Shown here: one piece after another, positions 356 to 58,808 of the stretch
How positions within the stretch are numbered: position 1 is the first letter of the stretch
Layout of the letters: every line of letters starts with the position of its first letter
NCBI GenBank assembly: GCA_000433915.1
Contig: HF993639.1
Coordinates: 61,633 to 125,632 of the forward strand
DNA from: Clostridium sp. CAG:793
GTDB taxonomy: Bacteria; Bacillota; Clostridia; TANB77; CAG-508
Length of the DNA stretch: 64,000 nucleotides
Direction: 5' to 3'
Notes under the pieces: model-generated
What the model saw: only the letters and a program-made list of their open reading frames with translations
Database searches by the model: none
What the model was told of the DNA's origin: nothing
Position numbers and translations under genes: made by a program

Positions 356-419
356 CAATTTAGCAAATACCCTATATTACTTGCGGATTCTTATTCGCAT
401 ACAAAGGAGTTGTCGTTTT

Positions 420-1802
420 ATGGCAAAGCAATTTGTTCTTCGCGCTGGTGCACTTCTTAGCCGTAAAAAAGCCTATTTGGCTTTTGGCGAAGCTGGTGAC
501 CATCTTGTCATTCCTATGGCAATCGTTGAAAAGCTCCACTATTTTGAAGGAGCTAAGCGGAATATGGCAGCTGAGGTAAGTGAATATATTAAATCTTGCC
601 CCAATGATGAGCTTCTTGGAAAAGGTTATGTTCAGAGCAATGGTACTATCCTTTCTGTTAAGTATGTCGAGGATATTTCTTCTGAAGTGAACCGCTTTAC
701 GGAGCTTTCTCTTCAAGATAAGCAGTGTCTCCAGATTTGCTTGAATCTTCAGAAAGAGTTTCCTGATGATGAGGTCATTCTTGTTTCTAAAAGTACTCCT
801 CTTCTGCTTAAGGCTGAAATCTTGAAGATCAAGTCTATGGATGCTCCTGATATGATTTATCCTTCGATTGATAGGCAGTATTCTGGAGTAACCAACTATA
901 CCATTAGTACAGAGAGTTTCAATGCTCTGATGACTTCTGGAAAAGTCTTTTTTCAAAATGACGATCCTAGCCATCTGTTGTATCCGAACGAGTTCTTAAT
1001 GGTTCATGATGAAAGCTATAATTCTGGTGTAAAGCTTGCAAGATTTGATGGAACCCATATTGTTGGGCTGAATTACCAGCTTAACAAGGATTATCATTCT
1101 AAGAACGCTGAGCAGAATTTCCTGACTGAGGCATTGTTTACACCTCCGGAAGTTGCTCCTCTGGTCATTGTCAAAGGTCCTGCTGGTACAGGCAAAACTT
1201 ATGTGACAGTCACAGCAGCTTTGGAGCTAACCAAATATGGCTCAGGAAATTACAGCCATGTTTATGACAGAATCATTATTGCTACTCCTACGGTAAGTGG
1301 TGGTAATGAGGAAATCGGTTTCCTCCCAGGTGACGTAAATCAGAAAGTTGGCCCCTATCTCGGCGGAATTTATGATAATATCATAAATTCTTTCGTACGA
1401 AAGAATCGCGAAAAAGCTGGGACTTATGGAGCTTCTATTGACCTTAATGCTGCACAGGACTGTTTCAATCAACTCATGGATGATGGCACTATATCTATCC
1501 AGCAGCTTGGTACCGTTGCCGGTCACTCGTTCGAGAACTCTATCATCATTGTCGATGAAGCCCAGAACGTTGATCCCAACTATTTCCTTGACATCGTGAC
1601 TCGAACTGGTGAAGGTTCTAAGCTGGTAGTCTTAGGTGATCCATCTCAGGTTAAATCACCCAAACTGGACAGCCGCATTAACGGCATCAACTACATGATG
1701 GAGTGCTGGAAAACAAGCCGCCTGGCATACCAGATTTCCATGAATGCAGACAAGGTTGTTCGTGGTTCTCTGTGCCAAGAAGCACTTAAGCTCATGAACT
1801 AA
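420..1802 (+). CDS. PhoH-family ATPase with a degenerate (catalytically dead) N-terminal PIN-like domain, on a GC-anomalous cassette
   Basis: Walker A GPAGTGKTYV, PhoH signature RIIIATPTVSGGNEEIGFLPGD, Walker B IIIVDEAQN, GSKLVVLGDPSQV. The N-terminus aligns to YlaK/PhoH2 PIN (FVLRAGALL for YVLDTNVLL; LVIPMAIVEKLH for VVIPxVVLEELD) with the catalytic acidic residues replaced. Visibly higher GC and GC-ending codons than the neighbours. Start moved to the ATG with an SD; the track ORF begins at 381. Confidence 0.8.
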   Translation: MAKQFVLRAGALLSRKKAYLAFGEAGDHLVIPMAIVEKLHYFEGAKRNMAAEVSEYIKSCPNDELLGKGYVQSNGTILSVKYVEDISSEVNRFTELSLQDKQCLQICLNLQKEFPDDEVILVSKSTPLLLKAEILKIKSMDAPDMIYPSIDRQYSGVTNYTISTESFNALMTSGKVFFQNDDPSHLLYPNEFLMVHDESYNSGVKLARFDGTHIVGLNYQLNKDYHSKNAEQNFLTEALFTPPEVAPLVIVKGPAGTGKTYVTVTAALELTKYGSGNYSHVYDRIIIATPTVSGGNEEIGFLPGDVNQKVGPYLGGIYDNIINSFVRKNREKAGTYGASIDLNAAQDCFNQLMDDGTISIQQLGTVAGHSFENSIIIVDEAQNVDPNYFLDIVTRTGEGSKLVVLGDPSQVKSPKLDSRINGINYMMECWKTSRLAYQISMNADKVVRGSLCQEALKLMN

Positions 1803-16190: not shown

Positions 16191-16766
16191 TTAGAAATTT
16201 GTTGTTCCATTGAATGGAATAAATTTATTTACAGCACTTTGTTGTAAGTCAATCTTTGCTTCTGTTGGTACTCTAAATTCTTTATAAGACATATCTATTT
16301 TATTGTCTACTAATTTTTCTATTTCATCTTTTGATGCATGTTCTGCTAGGACTAATTCGCTAACCAATATTAGTTTTGCATTATTAAGCATCTTCTTTTC
16401 ACCTGTTGATAATGATCCTTTTTCTTTTTGCTTAAAGCTTAAATTTCTTACTACGTCAGCTACTTGATAAATATCTCCTGTCTTCATTTTGTCTAAGTTC
16501 TCTCTATATCTTTTATTCCAGTTATCTGACATTTCTGTCTCATCTTGCTCTAATAGTTGTAATACTTTATTTGCACTTTGTCCATCAATAACACTTCTAA
16601 CACCCATTGATTCTGCCTTAGCTGTTGGCACCATTATCTTAACTTCTCCTGGCATTTTTATTACATAATATTGATGTTTCTCTCCTAATATTTCCTTTTC
16701 CTCAATAGCATCTATTGTCCCTGCACCATGCATTGGATAAACTATATTGTCACCTACATTAAACAT
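16191..16766 (-). CDS. CarD-family transcriptional regulator (CdnL-like)
   Basis: N-terminal CarD_TRCF RNAP-interaction domain (GDNIVYPMHGAGTIDAIEEKEI). Confidence 0.75.
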   Translation of the reverse strand: MFNVGDNIVYPMHGAGTIDAIEEKEILGEKHQYYVIKMPGEVKIMVPTAKAESMGVRSVIDGQSANKVLQLLEQDETEMSDNWNKRYRENLDKMKTGDIYQVADVVRNLSFKQKEKGSLSTGEKKMLNNAKLILVSELVLAEHASKDEIEKLVDNKIDMSYKEFRVPTEAKIDLQQSAVNKFIPFNGTTNF

Positions 16767-16977
16767 TTATGTATTCTCCTTTCCAACTTTTGGCCTATTA
16801 GAAGATATAAGTCTCCTCATTTACCACATCTATATTATACCACGATTTTGAAAATAAGTAAAGGAATTTTTAAAGAAATAATTTTCTTTCTTATGATAGT
16901 TTTTAACCGCCTTTGGGGCTTATTATGATTATTATTATAATTCTTTATTCGTTTTACATAATTTTTATTAATTTGTA

Positions 16978-17006
16978 TTGCTAATATTATGTAAATGTGG
17001 TATAAT
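16978..17006 (+). promoter_or_regulatory. Sigma-A type promoter (extended -10) for the two-gene GC-anomalous module
   Basis: TTGCTA (16978-16983), a 17-nt spacer, TGgTATAAT (-10 at 17001-17006). Confidence 0.45.
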
Positions 17007-17067
17007 AAAATGTACATACGTTAGTATGAATAGTACATTGAAAAATTAGAAAGGTTGTTGAGTTTTC

Positions 17068-17754
17068 ATGGCAATGAACATTATTCAAGTAAAAGATGGA
17101 AAAATGATAAAGTTTTCGGATGGCACTATGATTCCTCCAAGCGGACCTCGGTATCATCGTCACACTACTCGCTCAGGCATATGTGAATATCTTTCAACAG
17201 GAAATACGTATCTTCCCGCGGTGCCGCAGTTTATAAGCCTTAATAAGGCTTATAACTTGGAAAGTCGCCTCTTCGAAGCTTCTTTGCAAAGTGGCATTCT
17301 CATGCTTAAAAATTTGGCCACTAAGGACCTTGTAGTCTTAAAGGACTCGGTTTTAACAATTTACAATGATGGAAAGTTGGTAAAACCAGCCGAATTTGTT
17401 ACAATGCCTGGTGACCTGACAGGTACTGCGGTTATTCGCAACAACATGGCAAGCCGAGATAACTTCAGTTGGGACAATTCTCAATTTAAAAGTTTTCTAA
17501 AAAATCATGGGATCATTACTCCCTTGCATCAGGATCCCAACAGACTTTACCATGTTGGCAAAGATGATACTCTTCTTTCAAACGGCCAGCAAATTGTCGA
17601 CCCATTTGAAAAGCAAAATGTCGTTTTAGTCAATGCCACATGGAGCATACTTGTGGAGAAAAAAATAGAAGGAAATTGCAAGATTTCAAAATGCACTTTC
17701 CGTTCTCTGCAAAATCCTACAACTATTGCAGGATTACCTCATGTACATATTTAA
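17068..17754 (+). CDS. Hypothetical protein A (228 aa) of a GC-anomalous two-gene module
   Basis: Visibly ~42-45% GC against the <30% neighbours, with GC-ending codons. No signal peptide and no recognisable motif. Confidence 0.6.
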   Translation: MAMNIIQVKDGKMIKFSDGTMIPPSGPRYHRHTTRSGICEYLSTGNTYLPAVPQFISLNKAYNLESRLFEASLQSGILMLKNLATKDLVVLKDSVLTIYNDGKLVKPAEFVTMPGDLTGTAVIRNNMASRDNFSWDNSQFKSFLKNHGIITPLHQDPNRLYHVGKDDTLLSNGQQIVDPFEKQNVVLVNATWSILVEKKIEGNCKISKCTFRSLQNPTTIAGLPHVHI

Positions 17755-17775
17755 TGTATTAAAAAGGAGTTTTGT

Positions 17776-18450
17776 ATGTTTATTACAGTTCAATTTGATG
17801 AAAGAACTAATGTTCCCAAAGCCAAGGGAAAAGTTTACATCTCTAGCTATGAACGTGGTCAGCAGGATAACATTAGTGCAAAATCAAAGAATGAGCAAAA
17901 GGCATTTTTGACATATCCCCGAAAGCTGGATCTTGTGTCTTTTAAGGTAGAGATCATATCTGATACCGAGTTTCATTGCTCGGCACCCAATTACGGGCAA
18001 ACTGGCATCTTTAAGAACGGTATCTTCGAGGTTGTTGATGGTAAAAATATCATTGCCCGTTATCGTTGCACACCCACAAGTCAGATTGACGGTACTTTGT
18101 CTTTCTGCTCTGGTTTTCCTTCTAACTTTCCGAAGATCTCCTTCCGGAATCCGGTCTTCGATAAGTATCTAAGAGATCATTCCATTTTTAAGATGGAAGC
18201 ACGGCCTTCTGATGGGATTTACCCTATCCATGATGGAGAGAAGATCTTTTCAGATGGAGTCGTTAAAAAGTGCAATGGCATCTCTTACAAAGTAAGTCAT
18301 TCCACCTGGGTTATCATCTGTGGTAAAACTGTGGATGACTCGGTCCACTTTAAAACCTGTGGAGCTTGCTATAGGTATTCCAGCCGATTGATTTCTGCCA
18401 AGAATCCTATGGAGCTTGCTCTTCCCGTTATCAACCTTTCGAAGCTATGA
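17776..18450 (+). CDS. Hypothetical Cys-rich protein B (224 aa) of the same module
   Basis: 21 nt downstream of gene A with an AAGGAG SD. Seven Cys including CGAC. Same anomalous composition. Confidence 0.6.
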   Translation: MFITVQFDERTNVPKAKGKVYISSYERGQQDNISAKSKNEQKAFLTYPRKLDLVSFKVEIISDTEFHCSAPNYGQTGIFKNGIFEVVDGKNIIARYRCTPTSQIDGTLSFCSGFPSNFPKISFRNPVFDKYLRDHSIFKMEARPSDGIYPIHDGEKIFSDGVVKKCNGISYKVSHSTWVIICGKTVDDSVHFKTCGACYRYSSRLISAKNPMELALPVINLSKL

Positions 18451-18470
18451 TTGGCTGCCAATCATAGTGT

Positions 18471-18524
18471 AGCTCCCCCGAGCAGGTACGATATTTCGCG
18501 CCTAGCTTGGGGGAGCTATTTTTA
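18471..18524 (+). terminator. Strong intrinsic terminator of the two-gene module
   Basis: tagctccccc ... gggggagcta stem followed by ttttt; it is preceded by a separate perfect palindrome at 18444-18466. Confidence 0.7.
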
Positions 18525-18541
18525 TTTATATTTTATATTTA

Positions 18542-19006
18542 TTATTTATTATCAGTTGAACCAAATCCACCTTTTCTAACTCCATCTGCTGAATCATTAT
18601 CTGTTGTTAAATATTTCATAAATATTGCTTGTCCTATTGCATCTCCTTTTTTTATTGTAACATCATGATCAAAGAAATTATAAAATGCAAACATAAAATG
18701 TCCATCATTATCTTCATTTCCATAATAATCATAATCTATTATTCCAACACTGTTTGCCATTACCAATCCTCTTTTTCCTGGATTAGAGCTTCTATTACAT
18801 AACATATAAAATTCATCTGGTTGGCAGTATGCTTTTAATCCTGTTTTTACCAAAGTTGGCTTTTGTCCTTGCTTAAATGCAGGTATAACTGTATCTTCTG
18901 CTGCTTCAATATCATATCCAGCTGCATATTTAGTCTTTCTAACTGGTATATGAATATCTTTATCTTCAAATCCTTTTGCTATTTCAAATCCTCTTTTTTT
19001 CTCCAT
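18542..19006 (-). CDS. dut: dUTP diphosphatase
   Basis: dUTPase motifs (AGYDI, GIIDYDYYG, GGFGSTD). Confidence 0.85.
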   Translation of the reverse strand: MEKKRGFEIAKGFEDKDIHIPVRKTKYAAGYDIEAAEDTVIPAFKQGQKPTLVKTGLKAYCQPDEFYMLCNRSSNPGKRGLVMANSVGIIDYDYYGNEDNDGHFMFAFYNFFDHDVTIKKGDAIGQAIFMKYLTTDNDSADGVRKGGFGSTDNK

Positions 19007-58057: not shown

Positions 58058-58144
58058 GCAGATATGGCGGAACTGGTAGACGCACAGGACTTAAAATCCT
58101 GCGGTAGCGATACCGTCCCGGTTCGATTCCGGGTATCTGCACCA
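58058..58144 (+). tRNA. tRNA-Leu (anticodon UAA), class II with long variable arm, CCA encoded
   Basis: Acceptor stem GCAGATA/TATCTGC; anticodon stem-loop CAGGA-cuUAAaa-UCCUG; long variable arm CGGTAGCGATACCGTC; T-arm CCCGG-TTCGATT-CCGGG; 3' ACCA. Confidence 0.85.
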
Positions 58145-58280: not shown

Positions 58281-58709
58281 TTAGCTCTTCTTACAGATGT
58301 ACATATCAACCTCATCATCGCCGTCAATGATTGCGATGACAAAGTCCTTGTTTCCGTGCAGTTTGACTCTTCGGTAATCCTCCTCTACGCCTAGTTCGTA
58401 CTTATTGCCCACTTTTTCCAGCTTTGCTGGGATGTCTTTGAAATTCCCACAGTCATGGCAGATGATCTGTTTCTTATCGCTTATATCGAACCCCTCGATG
58501 TCCACGACAATTTTTATCAATAGCAGATCCTCTCCTTTGCTAAATAAGATGGCCACAAATGGCTGCTCTAGGTTCATCTCCTTGCAGTCATTGTACATAA
58601 AACGATCAAGCCTTTTTCCAAGGCACTTTAAAATCTGTGGCCAGAGAAGTGGCTTTTCCTTCCGCTGAGCCTCTAAAATTGCTTTCTTTGCTTTAATTGT
58701 GTTATTCAT
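58281..58709 (-). CDS. Hypothetical protein (about 142 aa) on a GC-anomalous single-gene cassette beside tRNA-Leu
   Basis: GGAGG SD; consensus promoter TTGCAA-17-TATAAT upstream on the minus strand; visibly ~45% GC; CHDCG motif; no family recognised. The track ORF starts at an upstream in-frame ATG (58724). Confidence 0.55.
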   Translation of the reverse strand: MNNTIKAKKAILEAQRKEKPLLWPQILKCLGKRLDRFMYNDCKEMNLEQPFVAILFSKGEDLLLIKIVVDIEGFDISDKKQIICHDCGNFKDIPAKLEKVGNKYELGVEEDYRRVKLHGNKDFVIAIIDGDDEVDMYICKKS

Positions 58710-58808
58710 TGTTAACCTCCACAATTGCTTTTTTCTGAAACGGACTACCTATATTATATCATTCTTTTGTTTCTTTTGCAAGTTATGTAAACATTAGTCT
58801 TAATAAAA

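What the first reader, a model, noticed from the sequence alone, without database searches (positions are those of the whole stretch)
16975..18530. Two-gene module of unknown, Cys-rich proteins inserted between carD and dut
Two co-oriented ORFs (228 and 224 aa, 21-nt gap, second with its own AAGGAG SD) of foreign composition. They are driven by an extended -10 consensus promoter and closed by a perfect palindrome plus a strong terminator. Neither protein has a signal peptide or a motif I can place. Protein B has seven Cys including a CGAC pair, so possibly a Zn-binding module. The tight pairing and private regulation fit a toxin/immunity, abortive-infection or small defence-type cassette. This is the only multi-gene foreign block in the window and is the best candidate for an undescribed system.
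Basis: partly seen in the sequence, partly recalled or inferred. Interest (0 to 1): 0.7.

Follow-up and report, generated by a model that had tools for sequence, protein, structure and literature searches.

The report
Acquired hypervariable pair of paralogous orphan genes
Two neighbouring genes of unknown function in a common human-gut Clostridium are real, foreign and unusually variable between strains, but they are two copies of one rare undescribed protein family, not a two-part toxin or defence system, and what they do remains unknown.

Summary
A ~1.63-kb GC-rich unit (promoter, ORF A 228 aa, ORF B 224 aa, double hairpin terminator) sits between carD and dut. The organism is Clostridium sp. 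CAG:793 (A = CCY99611.1, B = CCY99612.1, both named "unknown").

The "two-component cassette" reading is not supported:
- A and B are distant paralogs (21% identity, aligned end to end).
- They belong to one tiny undescribed family: 13 hits among 1.84 billion representatives, with no Pfam, NCBIfam, PHROG, PADLOC or PDB match.
- Everywhere else members are single stand-alone genes. One is a lone B-like gene in the same carD/dut slot of another species. Two are on mobile-element-like contigs.
- Eighty related species representatives have an empty dut-carD junction.
- There is no defence-island context.

Within the species both genes are intact in all 10 strain contexts shown and under purifying selection (dN/dS 0.1-0.26). 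Nucleotide diversity is about 5-fold above the flanks. Allele classes are deep (~84% identity beside 99.5-100% flanks) and mosaic, and A and B types assort freely.

Function is unresolved because structure prediction failed. My low-confidence guess is stand-alone, non-enzymatic binding proteins with a genetic-conflict role. Interest is moderate.

The parts
16893..18526 (+). Whole inserted unit (~1.63 kb), absent from related species
   Evidence: Homology to the empty dut-carD intergenic regions of L008, L009, L010, L012, L016 and L022 ends at window ~16863-16892 on the left and resumes at ~18527-18555 on the right. GC and GC3 are foreign.
16978..17006 (+). Sigma-A-type promoter with extended -10 (TTGCTA-17-TGgTATAAT)
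   Evidence: Consensus scan gives 10 of 12 matches with TG. Invariant in 11 strains. No comparable promoter lies upstream of B.
17068..17754 (+). ORF A, 228 aa (CCY99611.1, 'unknown')
   Evidence: dN/dS is 0.10-0.26 overall and 0.02-0.03 in codons 66-140. Family HMM E = 2e-65. No Pfam, NCBIfam, PHROG or PADLOC hit.
17764..17769 (+). Shine-Dalgarno AAGGAG for B
   Evidence: Read directly from the sequence, 6 nt upstream of the ATG at 17776.
17776..18450 (+). ORF B, 224 aa (CCY99612.1, 'unknown'), distant paralog of A
   Evidence: BLASTP of A against B gives E = 5e-5 and 21% identity over 150 aa, and the two align full length. dN/dS is 0.10-0.25. The closest relative is P0009 in the same slot of L094 (29% identity, E = 5e-12).
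18445..18467 (+). First 3' hairpin (11+1+11 palindrome overlapping B's stop codon)
   Evidence: It is imperfect in several strains, with changes that still allow G.U pairing. That suggests an RNA stem rather than a DNA operator.
18470..18530 (+). Intrinsic terminator (14-bp-arm hairpin 18470-18518 plus T-run)
   Evidence: Compensatory changes in L117 and L124 (T>C on the 5' arm matched by A>G on the 3' arm) keep the stem.
16191..16766 (-). Left flank: carD (CarD_TRCF_RID + CarD_C)
   Evidence: Pfam E = 3e-33 and 5e-17. 100% identical in L001, L002 and L007.
18542..19006 (-). Right flank: dut (dUTPase)
   Evidence: Pfam E = 6e-17. 99-100% identical in same-species contigs.

Best explanation
SHOWN:
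- A ~1.63-kb horizontally acquired, self-contained operon (sigma-A-type promoter, A, B, double hairpin terminator) was inserted between dut and carD in the Clostridium sp. CAG:793 lineage.
- A and B are deep paralogs of one very small, undescribed protein family. Members are about 225 aa, soluble and probably mostly beta-strand, with one conserved helix motif F-x2-F-L-x2-H-G-I followed by DPN, then TDG, (A/S)TW(V)I and a C-terminal NP-x2-L-x-LP.
- The family is restricted to gut Clostridia and mobile-element-like contigs.
- Other members work as single stand-alone genes, so this pair is a paralog doublet and not a two-component system.
- Both genes were intact in all 10 strain contexts examined, and both are under purifying selection. 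They carry ~5-fold excess diversity, deep allele classes, intragenic mosaics and free assortment of A and B types. Variation is concentrated in the N-terminal ~65 residues.

INFERRED (low confidence):
- Each protein acts alone as a non-enzymatic binding protein in a genetic-conflict role, for example recognising or neutralising a phage, mobile-element or competitor-derived factor.
- The variable N-terminal part sets specificity and the conserved core acts as scaffold.
- Two paralogs and several allele classes would broaden the range of targets covered.
For: Foreign origin and empty sites:
- GC and GC3 are foreign.
- None of 80 related species representatives has A, B or any family member near carD, and most have dut and carD 160-320 bp apart.

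Paralogy and family:
-.

Singletons elsewhere:
- P0009 sits alone in the same slot of L094.
- P0019, P0016 and P0012 sit alone among housekeeping genes.
- P0013 and P0042 lie on contigs with methylases, IS605, an AcrVA2-like gene, a CI-like repressor and phage-family ORFs.

Real, constrained genes:
- dN/dS is 0.10-0.26.
- Both genes are intact in all 10 strain contexts shown.
- The exact sequences recur on 144 and 60 contigs.

Hypervariability:
- A and B are 83-86% identical at the DNA level beside 99-100% identical flanks.
- Nucleotide diversity is 0.049 and 0.050 against 0.004-0.012 in the flanking genes.
- Alleles are mosaic and all four A/B combinations occur.
- 36 of 65 N-terminal sites vary in A and 38 of 65 in B.

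Non-enzymatic:
- Family-wide conserved residues are mainly G, P, F, W and L. No conserved catalytic-type set is apparent.
Against: - There is no positive functional evidence. No domain, fold, partner gene or expression data is available.
- Both AlphaFold models are unusable (pLDDT 38.7 and 38.9).
- There is no PADLOC hit and no defence-island context.
- No region shows dN/dS above 1. The highest value is 0.51, in the N-terminus of A, so diversifying selection is not demonstrated.
- Deep alleles could come from import out of unsampled lineages rather than from balancing selection.
- The family is absent from 50,697 phage and 72,556 plasmid records and from IMG/VR. Calling L095 and L113 mobile elements rests on gene content alone.
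Confidence: 0.4

Rival explanations
1. The pair has a lineage-specific cellular role unrelated to conflict, for example nucleic-acid binding, regulation, or a sporulation- or stress-related function. The high diversity would then reflect weak constraint on the N-terminus plus recombinational import of diverged alleles.
For: - The site is chromosomal and fixed, with a constitutive-looking sigma-A promoter.
- Both proteins are basic, pI 9.2.
- A has a weak HeH-like (Ish1) match at residues 134-152, E = 1e-3, below the gathering score.
- Singleton relatives sit among housekeeping and sporulation-associated genes such as rpoBC, uvrA, veg, sipL, yunB and ytxC.
- Purifying selection acts throughout, and no region has dN/dS above 1.
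Against: - The distribution is extremely patchy. The family is absent from 80 related species at this locus, and only 13 hits were found among 1.84 billion representatives.
- Codon usage is foreign.
- Allele classes are bimodal, 20- to 30-fold more diverged than the flanks.
- Relatives occur on mobile-element-like contigs.
Confidence: 0.3
2. This is the first reader's model: a two-component toxin-antitoxin, toxin-immunity or abortive-infection cassette, in which A and B are functionally distinct cognate partners.
For: - The operon is tight, with a 21-nt gap, its own SD, and a private promoter and terminator.
- It is foreign and strain-variable.
Against: - A and B are same-size paralogs.
- No toxin, antitoxin or defence model matches.
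- Relatives occur singly, including in the same slot.
- A and B allele types recombine freely.
- One strain contig has a frameshifted B beside an intact A. That would be unexpected if B were the antidote, though an assembly error is not excluded.
Confidence: 0.07
3. The pair is a remnant of mobile-element cargo with little or no present function for the host, persisting by hitch-hiking between two essential genes.
For: - Composition is foreign, with no integrase or repeats left.
- One possible null allele of B exists.
- Truncated B fragments occur in the protein database (P0014, P0018).
Against: - dN/dS is 0.02-0.26 over dS of 0.4-1.0, which shows long-term purifying selection.
- Both ORFs are intact in all 10 strain contexts shown and in a sister lineage.
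- The promoter and terminator are conserved, with compensatory changes in the terminator.
Confidence: 0.08

Closest known systems
Orphan immunity-protein arrays of polymorphic-toxin systems (by analogy only; from general knowledge, not tested by homology)
   Same: Small, soluble proteins with no conserved catalytic-type residues. They occur as tandem paralogs without an adjacent toxin. They are horizontally acquired, patchily distributed and strongly polymorphic between strains.
   Different: No match to any immunity-protein Pfam family. No toxin gene (LXG, RHS and the like) is seen next to any family member examined. At ~225 aa the proteins are larger than most immunity proteins.
Single-gene abortive-infection or defence proteins (PADLOC-type catalogue)
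   Same: Stand-alone gene with its own promoter and terminator, foreign composition, strain variability, and a variable N-terminal region beside a conserved C-terminal region.
   Different: No PADLOC model matches A, B or 13 other family sequences. The single weak hit is HORMA at E = 3e-3 for one member. No recognisable effector domain is present. The neighbours are housekeeping genes, not a defence island.
Anti-defence proteins carried by mobile elements (e.g. anti-CRISPRs)
   Same: Two family members lie on mobile-element-like contigs, next to orphan DNA methylases or an AcrVA2-like gene. The proteins look non-enzymatic and evolve fast.
   Different: The window copies are chromosomal and present in every strain context examined. 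The only sequence lead, AcrIIA5 (PDB 6lkf), has E = 0.04 with the subfamily profile and disappears with the whole-family profile. The family is absent from phage, plasmid and IMG/VR collections.

Membership tests
Type II toxin-antitoxin / toxin-immunity pair | Two different proteins (a toxin domain plus a distinct antidote) | tested here: not met
   A and B are same-length paralogs that align end to end. No toxin or antitoxin domain is found in Pfam or NCBIfam.
Type II toxin-antitoxin / toxin-immunity pair | The pair is conserved as a pair in independent genomic contexts | tested here: not met
   The pair is found only at this locus in CAG:793 and a close sister lineage. All distant relatives are singletons.
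Type II toxin-antitoxin / toxin-immunity pair | Cognate partners co-vary (allele types are co-inherited) | tested here: not met
   All four A/B allele-type combinations occur, and B is mosaic within the gene.
Catalogued anti-phage defence systems (PADLOC-DB 2.0.0) | Match to a defence-protein HMM | tested here: not met
   No hit for A or B. Among 15 family sequences there is only one weak HORMA hit, E = 3e-3. Systems described after 2023 are not covered.
Catalogued anti-phage defence systems (PADLOC-DB 2.0.0) | Location in a defence island | tested here: not met
   The neighbours are rpsF, ssb, sigA, dnaG, carD, dut, feoAB, ygjP, a radical-SAM methylthiotransferase-type gene (UPF0004, Radical_SAM and TRAM domains) and rpe.
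Zinc-ribbon / Cys-rich Zn-binding module | Four conserved Cys/His ligands (for example paired CxxC) across homologues | tested here: inconclusive
   It is not a family feature, because the Cys positions are not conserved in A, P0009 or the GNGW subfamily. B alone has an inserted C182-x8-H191-x3-C195-x2-C198, invariant in the five B sequences; one further variant (P0028) has N at 191. Metal binding cannot be tested here.
HeH/SAP-like motif (Pfam Ish1, PF10281) | Score at or above the gathering threshold | tested here: not met
   A residues 134-152 score 19.7 bits against a cut-off of 26.6, E = 1e-3. Only 2 of 15 family sequences match.
Anti-CRISPR AcrIIA5 | Significant sequence similarity | tested here: not met
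   E = 0.04 with the GNGW-subfamily profile. There is no hit with the whole-family profile.
Diversity-generating retroelement target gene | A nearby reverse transcriptase and template repeat, with variation confined to a short variable region | tested here: not met
   No template-like repeat lies within 16700-18700. All flanking genes are housekeeping. Differences are spread over both genes, and synonymous sites are affected as strongly as others.
Beta-trefoil / internally repeated fold | Detectable internal repeats | tested here: not met
   The PDB hit to a designed trefoil comes from one query segment matching three identical repeats, with per-domain E above 20. hhalign between segments of the family alignment gives probabilities below 1%.

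The most novel reading that the evidence does not exclude
A and B are founding members of an undescribed family of single-protein conflict factors (defence, exclusion or immunity) in gut Clostridia. Their N-terminal ~65 residues would act as a specificity determinant, kept polymorphic by balancing selection in a highly prevalent human-gut commensal. Mobile elements carrying acidic relatives would be the reservoir.
Probability: 0.25. Interest if true: 0.6.

Novelty: new variant of a known kind. Interest (0 to 1): 0.35.

Why it matters
If the conflict reading is right, this would be a new protein family for phage, mobile-element or competitor interactions in an abundant but uncultured group of human-gut Clostridia. 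It would come with a natural allelic series, the deep mosaic allele classes, that could be used to map specificity.

Even without a function, the locus is a sharply bounded diversity hotspot between two essential genes. That makes it a convenient strain marker for this species in metagenomes.

If the proteins turn out to have an ordinary cellular role, the finding is simply a well-documented orphan gene pair.

Tried and rejected
1. Pfam, NCBIfam, PHROGs and PADLOC on A and B and on 15 family sequences gave nothing above threshold.
2. AlphaFold2 on 8-sequence alignments gave pLDDT 38.7 and 38.9. The models are unusable, so no fold search was run.
3. PDB sequence and profile searches gave RavO at E = 0.1, a designed beta-trefoil (a repeat artefact) and AcrIIA5 at E = 0.04. 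None is significant.
4. The internal-repeat and beta-trefoil idea was rejected by hhalign between segments.
5. Phage, plasmid and IMG/VR searches with A, B, P0013 and motif patterns found no hits. The family alignments were too divergent for automatic pattern design.
6. Megablast of the two mobile-element-like contigs against plasmids and phages found no match.
7. Rfam across the window and the family loci found only one tRNA above threshold; a few matches elsewhere fall far below their gathering scores.
8. Homology between the window's A leader and the P0009 leader of L094 is not significant, since 214 of 1000 shuffles score as well. One insertion versus two remains unresolved.
9. A DGR-type mechanism was rejected.
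10. The literature has no mention of the accessions, and CAG-793 appears only as a taxon in microbiome surveys.
11. The idea that the dut-carD slot is a hotspot for foreign cargo was rejected. Enlarged gaps in more distant species hold native-GC transporter-like and other native-GC ORFs.

Full report
OBSERVATION

A is 17068-17754 (228 aa) and B is 17776-18450 (224 aa), both on the + strand with a 21-nt gap. AAGGAG lies 6 nt before B's start codon.

GC rises from ~0.29 to 0.38-0.44 over the block. GC3 is 0.36 for A and 0.43 for B, against 0.10-0.21 in the six surrounding housekeeping genes.

A sigma-A-type promoter with a TG-extended -10 (TTGCTA-17-TATAAT) lies at 16978-17006. No comparable promoter precedes B, so the two genes are most likely co-transcribed; this is an inference.

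The 3' end has a perfect 11+1+11 palindrome (18445-18467) and a 14-bp-arm hairpin (18470-18518) followed by a T-run. Together they fold at -53 kcal/mol, z = -9.4.

Neither protein has a signal peptide or a membrane segment. Both are basic, pI 9.2. The flanks are carD and dut.

The other GC-rich spots in the window are single genes, so "the only multi-gene foreign block" holds.

IDENTITY AND DISTRIBUTION

Exact look-up identifies A as CCY99611.1 and B as CCY99612.1, both named "unknown", from Clostridium sp. CAG:793. The exact sequences are seen on 144 and 60 contigs.

In 5.8 billion clustered proteins, A has 5 hits and B has 3, all at least 79% identical. Every one is encoded in the same carD | A B | dut slot.

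I scanned one genome per species with CarD and obtained 80 related gut MAGs (CarD 70-91% identical). None encodes A or B by tblastn. None encodes any family member by a family HMM run over all ORFs. In most of them dut and carD are adjacent and co-oriented, 160-320 bp apart.

Alignment of those empty sites to the window puts the insert at about 16893-18526, roughly 1.63 kb. It therefore carries its own promoter and terminator. No integrase, flanking repeat or tRNA accompanies it.

A AND B ARE PARALOGS OF ONE SMALL UNDESCRIBED FAMILY

BLASTP of A against B gives E = 5e-5 and 21% identity over 150 aa. With their alleles the two align end to end and share landmark residues.

An exhaustive profile search of 1.84 billion representative proteins found only 13 hits at E <= 1e-3. 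Beyond the A and B clusters these are P0009 to P0013, P0015 to P0017 and P0019, plus two B fragments. A motif scan of metagenome contigs added three more members.

The family shares these features:
- an N-terminal half, with GNGW...DG...YSDG in most members;
- F(R)-x3-F-x2-FL-x2-HGI...DPN;
- TDG;
- (A/S)TW(V)I;
- a C-terminal (LYT)..NP..L.LP.

The conserved positions are mostly G, P and aromatic residues. No conserved catalytic-type set is evident.

No member matches Pfam, NCBIfam, PHROGs or PADLOC above threshold or any PDB sequence. The family is absent from the phage, plasmid and IMG/VR collections.

A is closer to the GNGW subfamily (E = 1e-10 to P0015) than to B (E = 7.6e-4). B is closest to P0009 (E about 1e-11). 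The duplication is therefore old.

CONTEXT OF RELATIVES

P0009 (209 aa, 29% identical to B) sits alone in the same carD/dut slot and in the same orientation in another species, L094. That species has CarD 93% and DnaG 77% identical to the window, and P0009 has its own promoter and terminator.

P0019, P0016 and P0012 are single stand-alone genes among housekeeping genes: def, FTHFS|ytxC, and rpoBC...uvrA.

P0013 (599 aa, with a C-terminal extension) and P0042 lie on contigs of ~50% GC that are rich in small unknown ORFs. Their neighbours include two DNA methylases, IS605/TnpB, an AcrVA2-like gene, a CI-like/S26 repressor and phage-family ORFs. I call these contigs mobile-element-like on gene content alone, because neither matches a sequenced plasmid or phage.

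Chromosomal members are GC-richer than their hosts, while P0013 matches its contig. This fits repeated acquisition from a pool of about 50% GC; that is an inference.

POPULATION PATTERN

In contigs of the same species the flanks are 99-100% identical to the window, but A is 83-84% and B is 86-95% identical. The change is sharp at about 17000 and about 18450.

Eleven strains give nucleotide diversity of 0.049 (A) and 0.050 (B), against 0.004-0.012 in the flanking genes.

Identities are bimodal, either 95-100% or 84-88%. A uniformly faster rate does not explain this. My own rough estimate is that compositional amelioration accounts for less than a two-fold rate difference.

Between allele classes dS is 0.41-0.51 and dN/dS is 0.19-0.26. 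Against the sister lineage L006, dS is about 1.0 and dN/dS about 0.10. The core of A (codons 66-140) has dN/dS of 0.02-0.03, and its N-terminal 65 codons 0.51.

Variable sites cluster in the first ~65 residues of both proteins.

A and B allele types occur in all four combinations, and B is mosaic within the gene.

Both genes are intact in all 10 distinct strain contexts returned for the species' CarD. One contig has a 1-nt deletion in B.

The promoter is invariant, and the terminator stem is kept by compensatory changes. The palindrome is imperfect in several strains in a way that still allows G.U pairing, so it is more likely an RNA stem than an operator.

INTERPRETATION

What is shown:
- The block is an acquired operon, present intact in every strain context examined, containing two deep paralogs of a rare, undescribed family.
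- The genes are real, constrained and unusually polymorphic.

What is refuted is the two-component (toxin/immunity, TA or Abi cassette) model:
- The proteins are paralogs.
- Relatives act as singletons, including in the same slot.
- Allele types do not co-vary.
- No defence model or defence island is present.

The Zn-module idea is not a family property. Only B has an inserted C-x8-H-x3-C-x2-C, which is invariant in the five aligned B sequences; one further variant (P0028) has N in place of H191.

What is inferred, with low confidence: each protein is a stand-alone, non-enzymatic binder with a genetic-conflict role, and its variable N-terminus sets specificity. The grounds are the patchy horizontal distribution, the relatives on mobile-element-like contigs, the deep mosaic allele classes and the lack of catalytic signatures.

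The main rival is an ordinary lineage-specific cellular role, with alleles imported from unsampled lineages. It cannot be excluded, because no region shows dN/dS above 1 and no fold could be obtained. Both AlphaFold runs, on only 8 sequences, gave pLDDT of about 39.

NOVELTY AND SCORE

The protein family is undescribed, and the literature does not mention these genes. A strain-variable, horizontally acquired orphan cassette is a familiar kind of object, however, and no new mechanism is demonstrated. I therefore rate it a new variant of a known kind, with moderate interest (0.35). The most novel reading that remains open is a new single-protein conflict family under balancing selection, at probability ~0.25.

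Noticed in passing
L096:123-160 and L097:9534-9570 (also L098, L099, L100): The 5' leaders of family members P0015 and P0016 share a block of about 40-60 nt: GTTAGCCARTCTTRTRYTTTGGG(N)AACGAACGCCACTT...GGGTAGTAGG. It is much better conserved than the coding regions (41% aa identity), although the hosts have 25% and 51% GC. No Rfam match. It is absent from other members and from IMG/VR. With only two distinct sequences, covariation cannot be tested. It may be a cis-regulatory leader.
   Followed up: partly
window 381-1802 (+): A 473-aa ORF whose sequence looks like a PhoH-type P-loop NTPase (judged by eye, no domain search run) lies in a GC-rich stretch (0.38-0.42 against 0.29 for the window). 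It may be another horizontally acquired single gene.
   Followed up: no
window 58058-58141 (tRNA) and 58281-58724 (-): A 147-aa ORF of unknown function in a locally GC-rich kilobase (0.36) lies immediately next to the only tRNA in the window. It may be a small insertion at a tRNA.
   Followed up: no
L007:4131-4806 (equivalent to window 17975): One same-species contig has a single-base deletion at nt 200 of B, outside any homopolymer. It splits B into 131-aa and ~160-aa pieces while A stays intact. This is either a natural null allele or an assembly error. Truncated B fragments (P0014, P0018) also exist in the protein database.
   Followed up: partly
window 16822-16843 and 16985-17007: The divergent carD promoter and A promoter share an inverted, identical 11-nt extended -10 block (GTGGTATAATA), with 83% complementarity over 18 nt. 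This is either convergence on the consensus or a sign that the A promoter copied the carD promoter.
   Followed up: no
L031:3405-5997, L034:4609-5997, L065:5003-5997: In more distant relatives the dut-carD gap is enlarged (1.0-2.6 kb) and holds native-GC ORFs that look like membrane transporters and other ordinary genes (judged by eye from the translations). Gene order in this slot varies, but the content is not foreign cargo.
   Followed up: partly
L113:5933-7075 (-) and L095:12055-16417: The mobile-element-like contigs that carry family members P0042 and P0013 also carry an AcrVA2-like gene (PF26125 / phrog_6160) or two orphan DNA methylases plus IS605 TnpA/TnpB. These may be anti-defence neighbourhoods.
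   Followed up: partly
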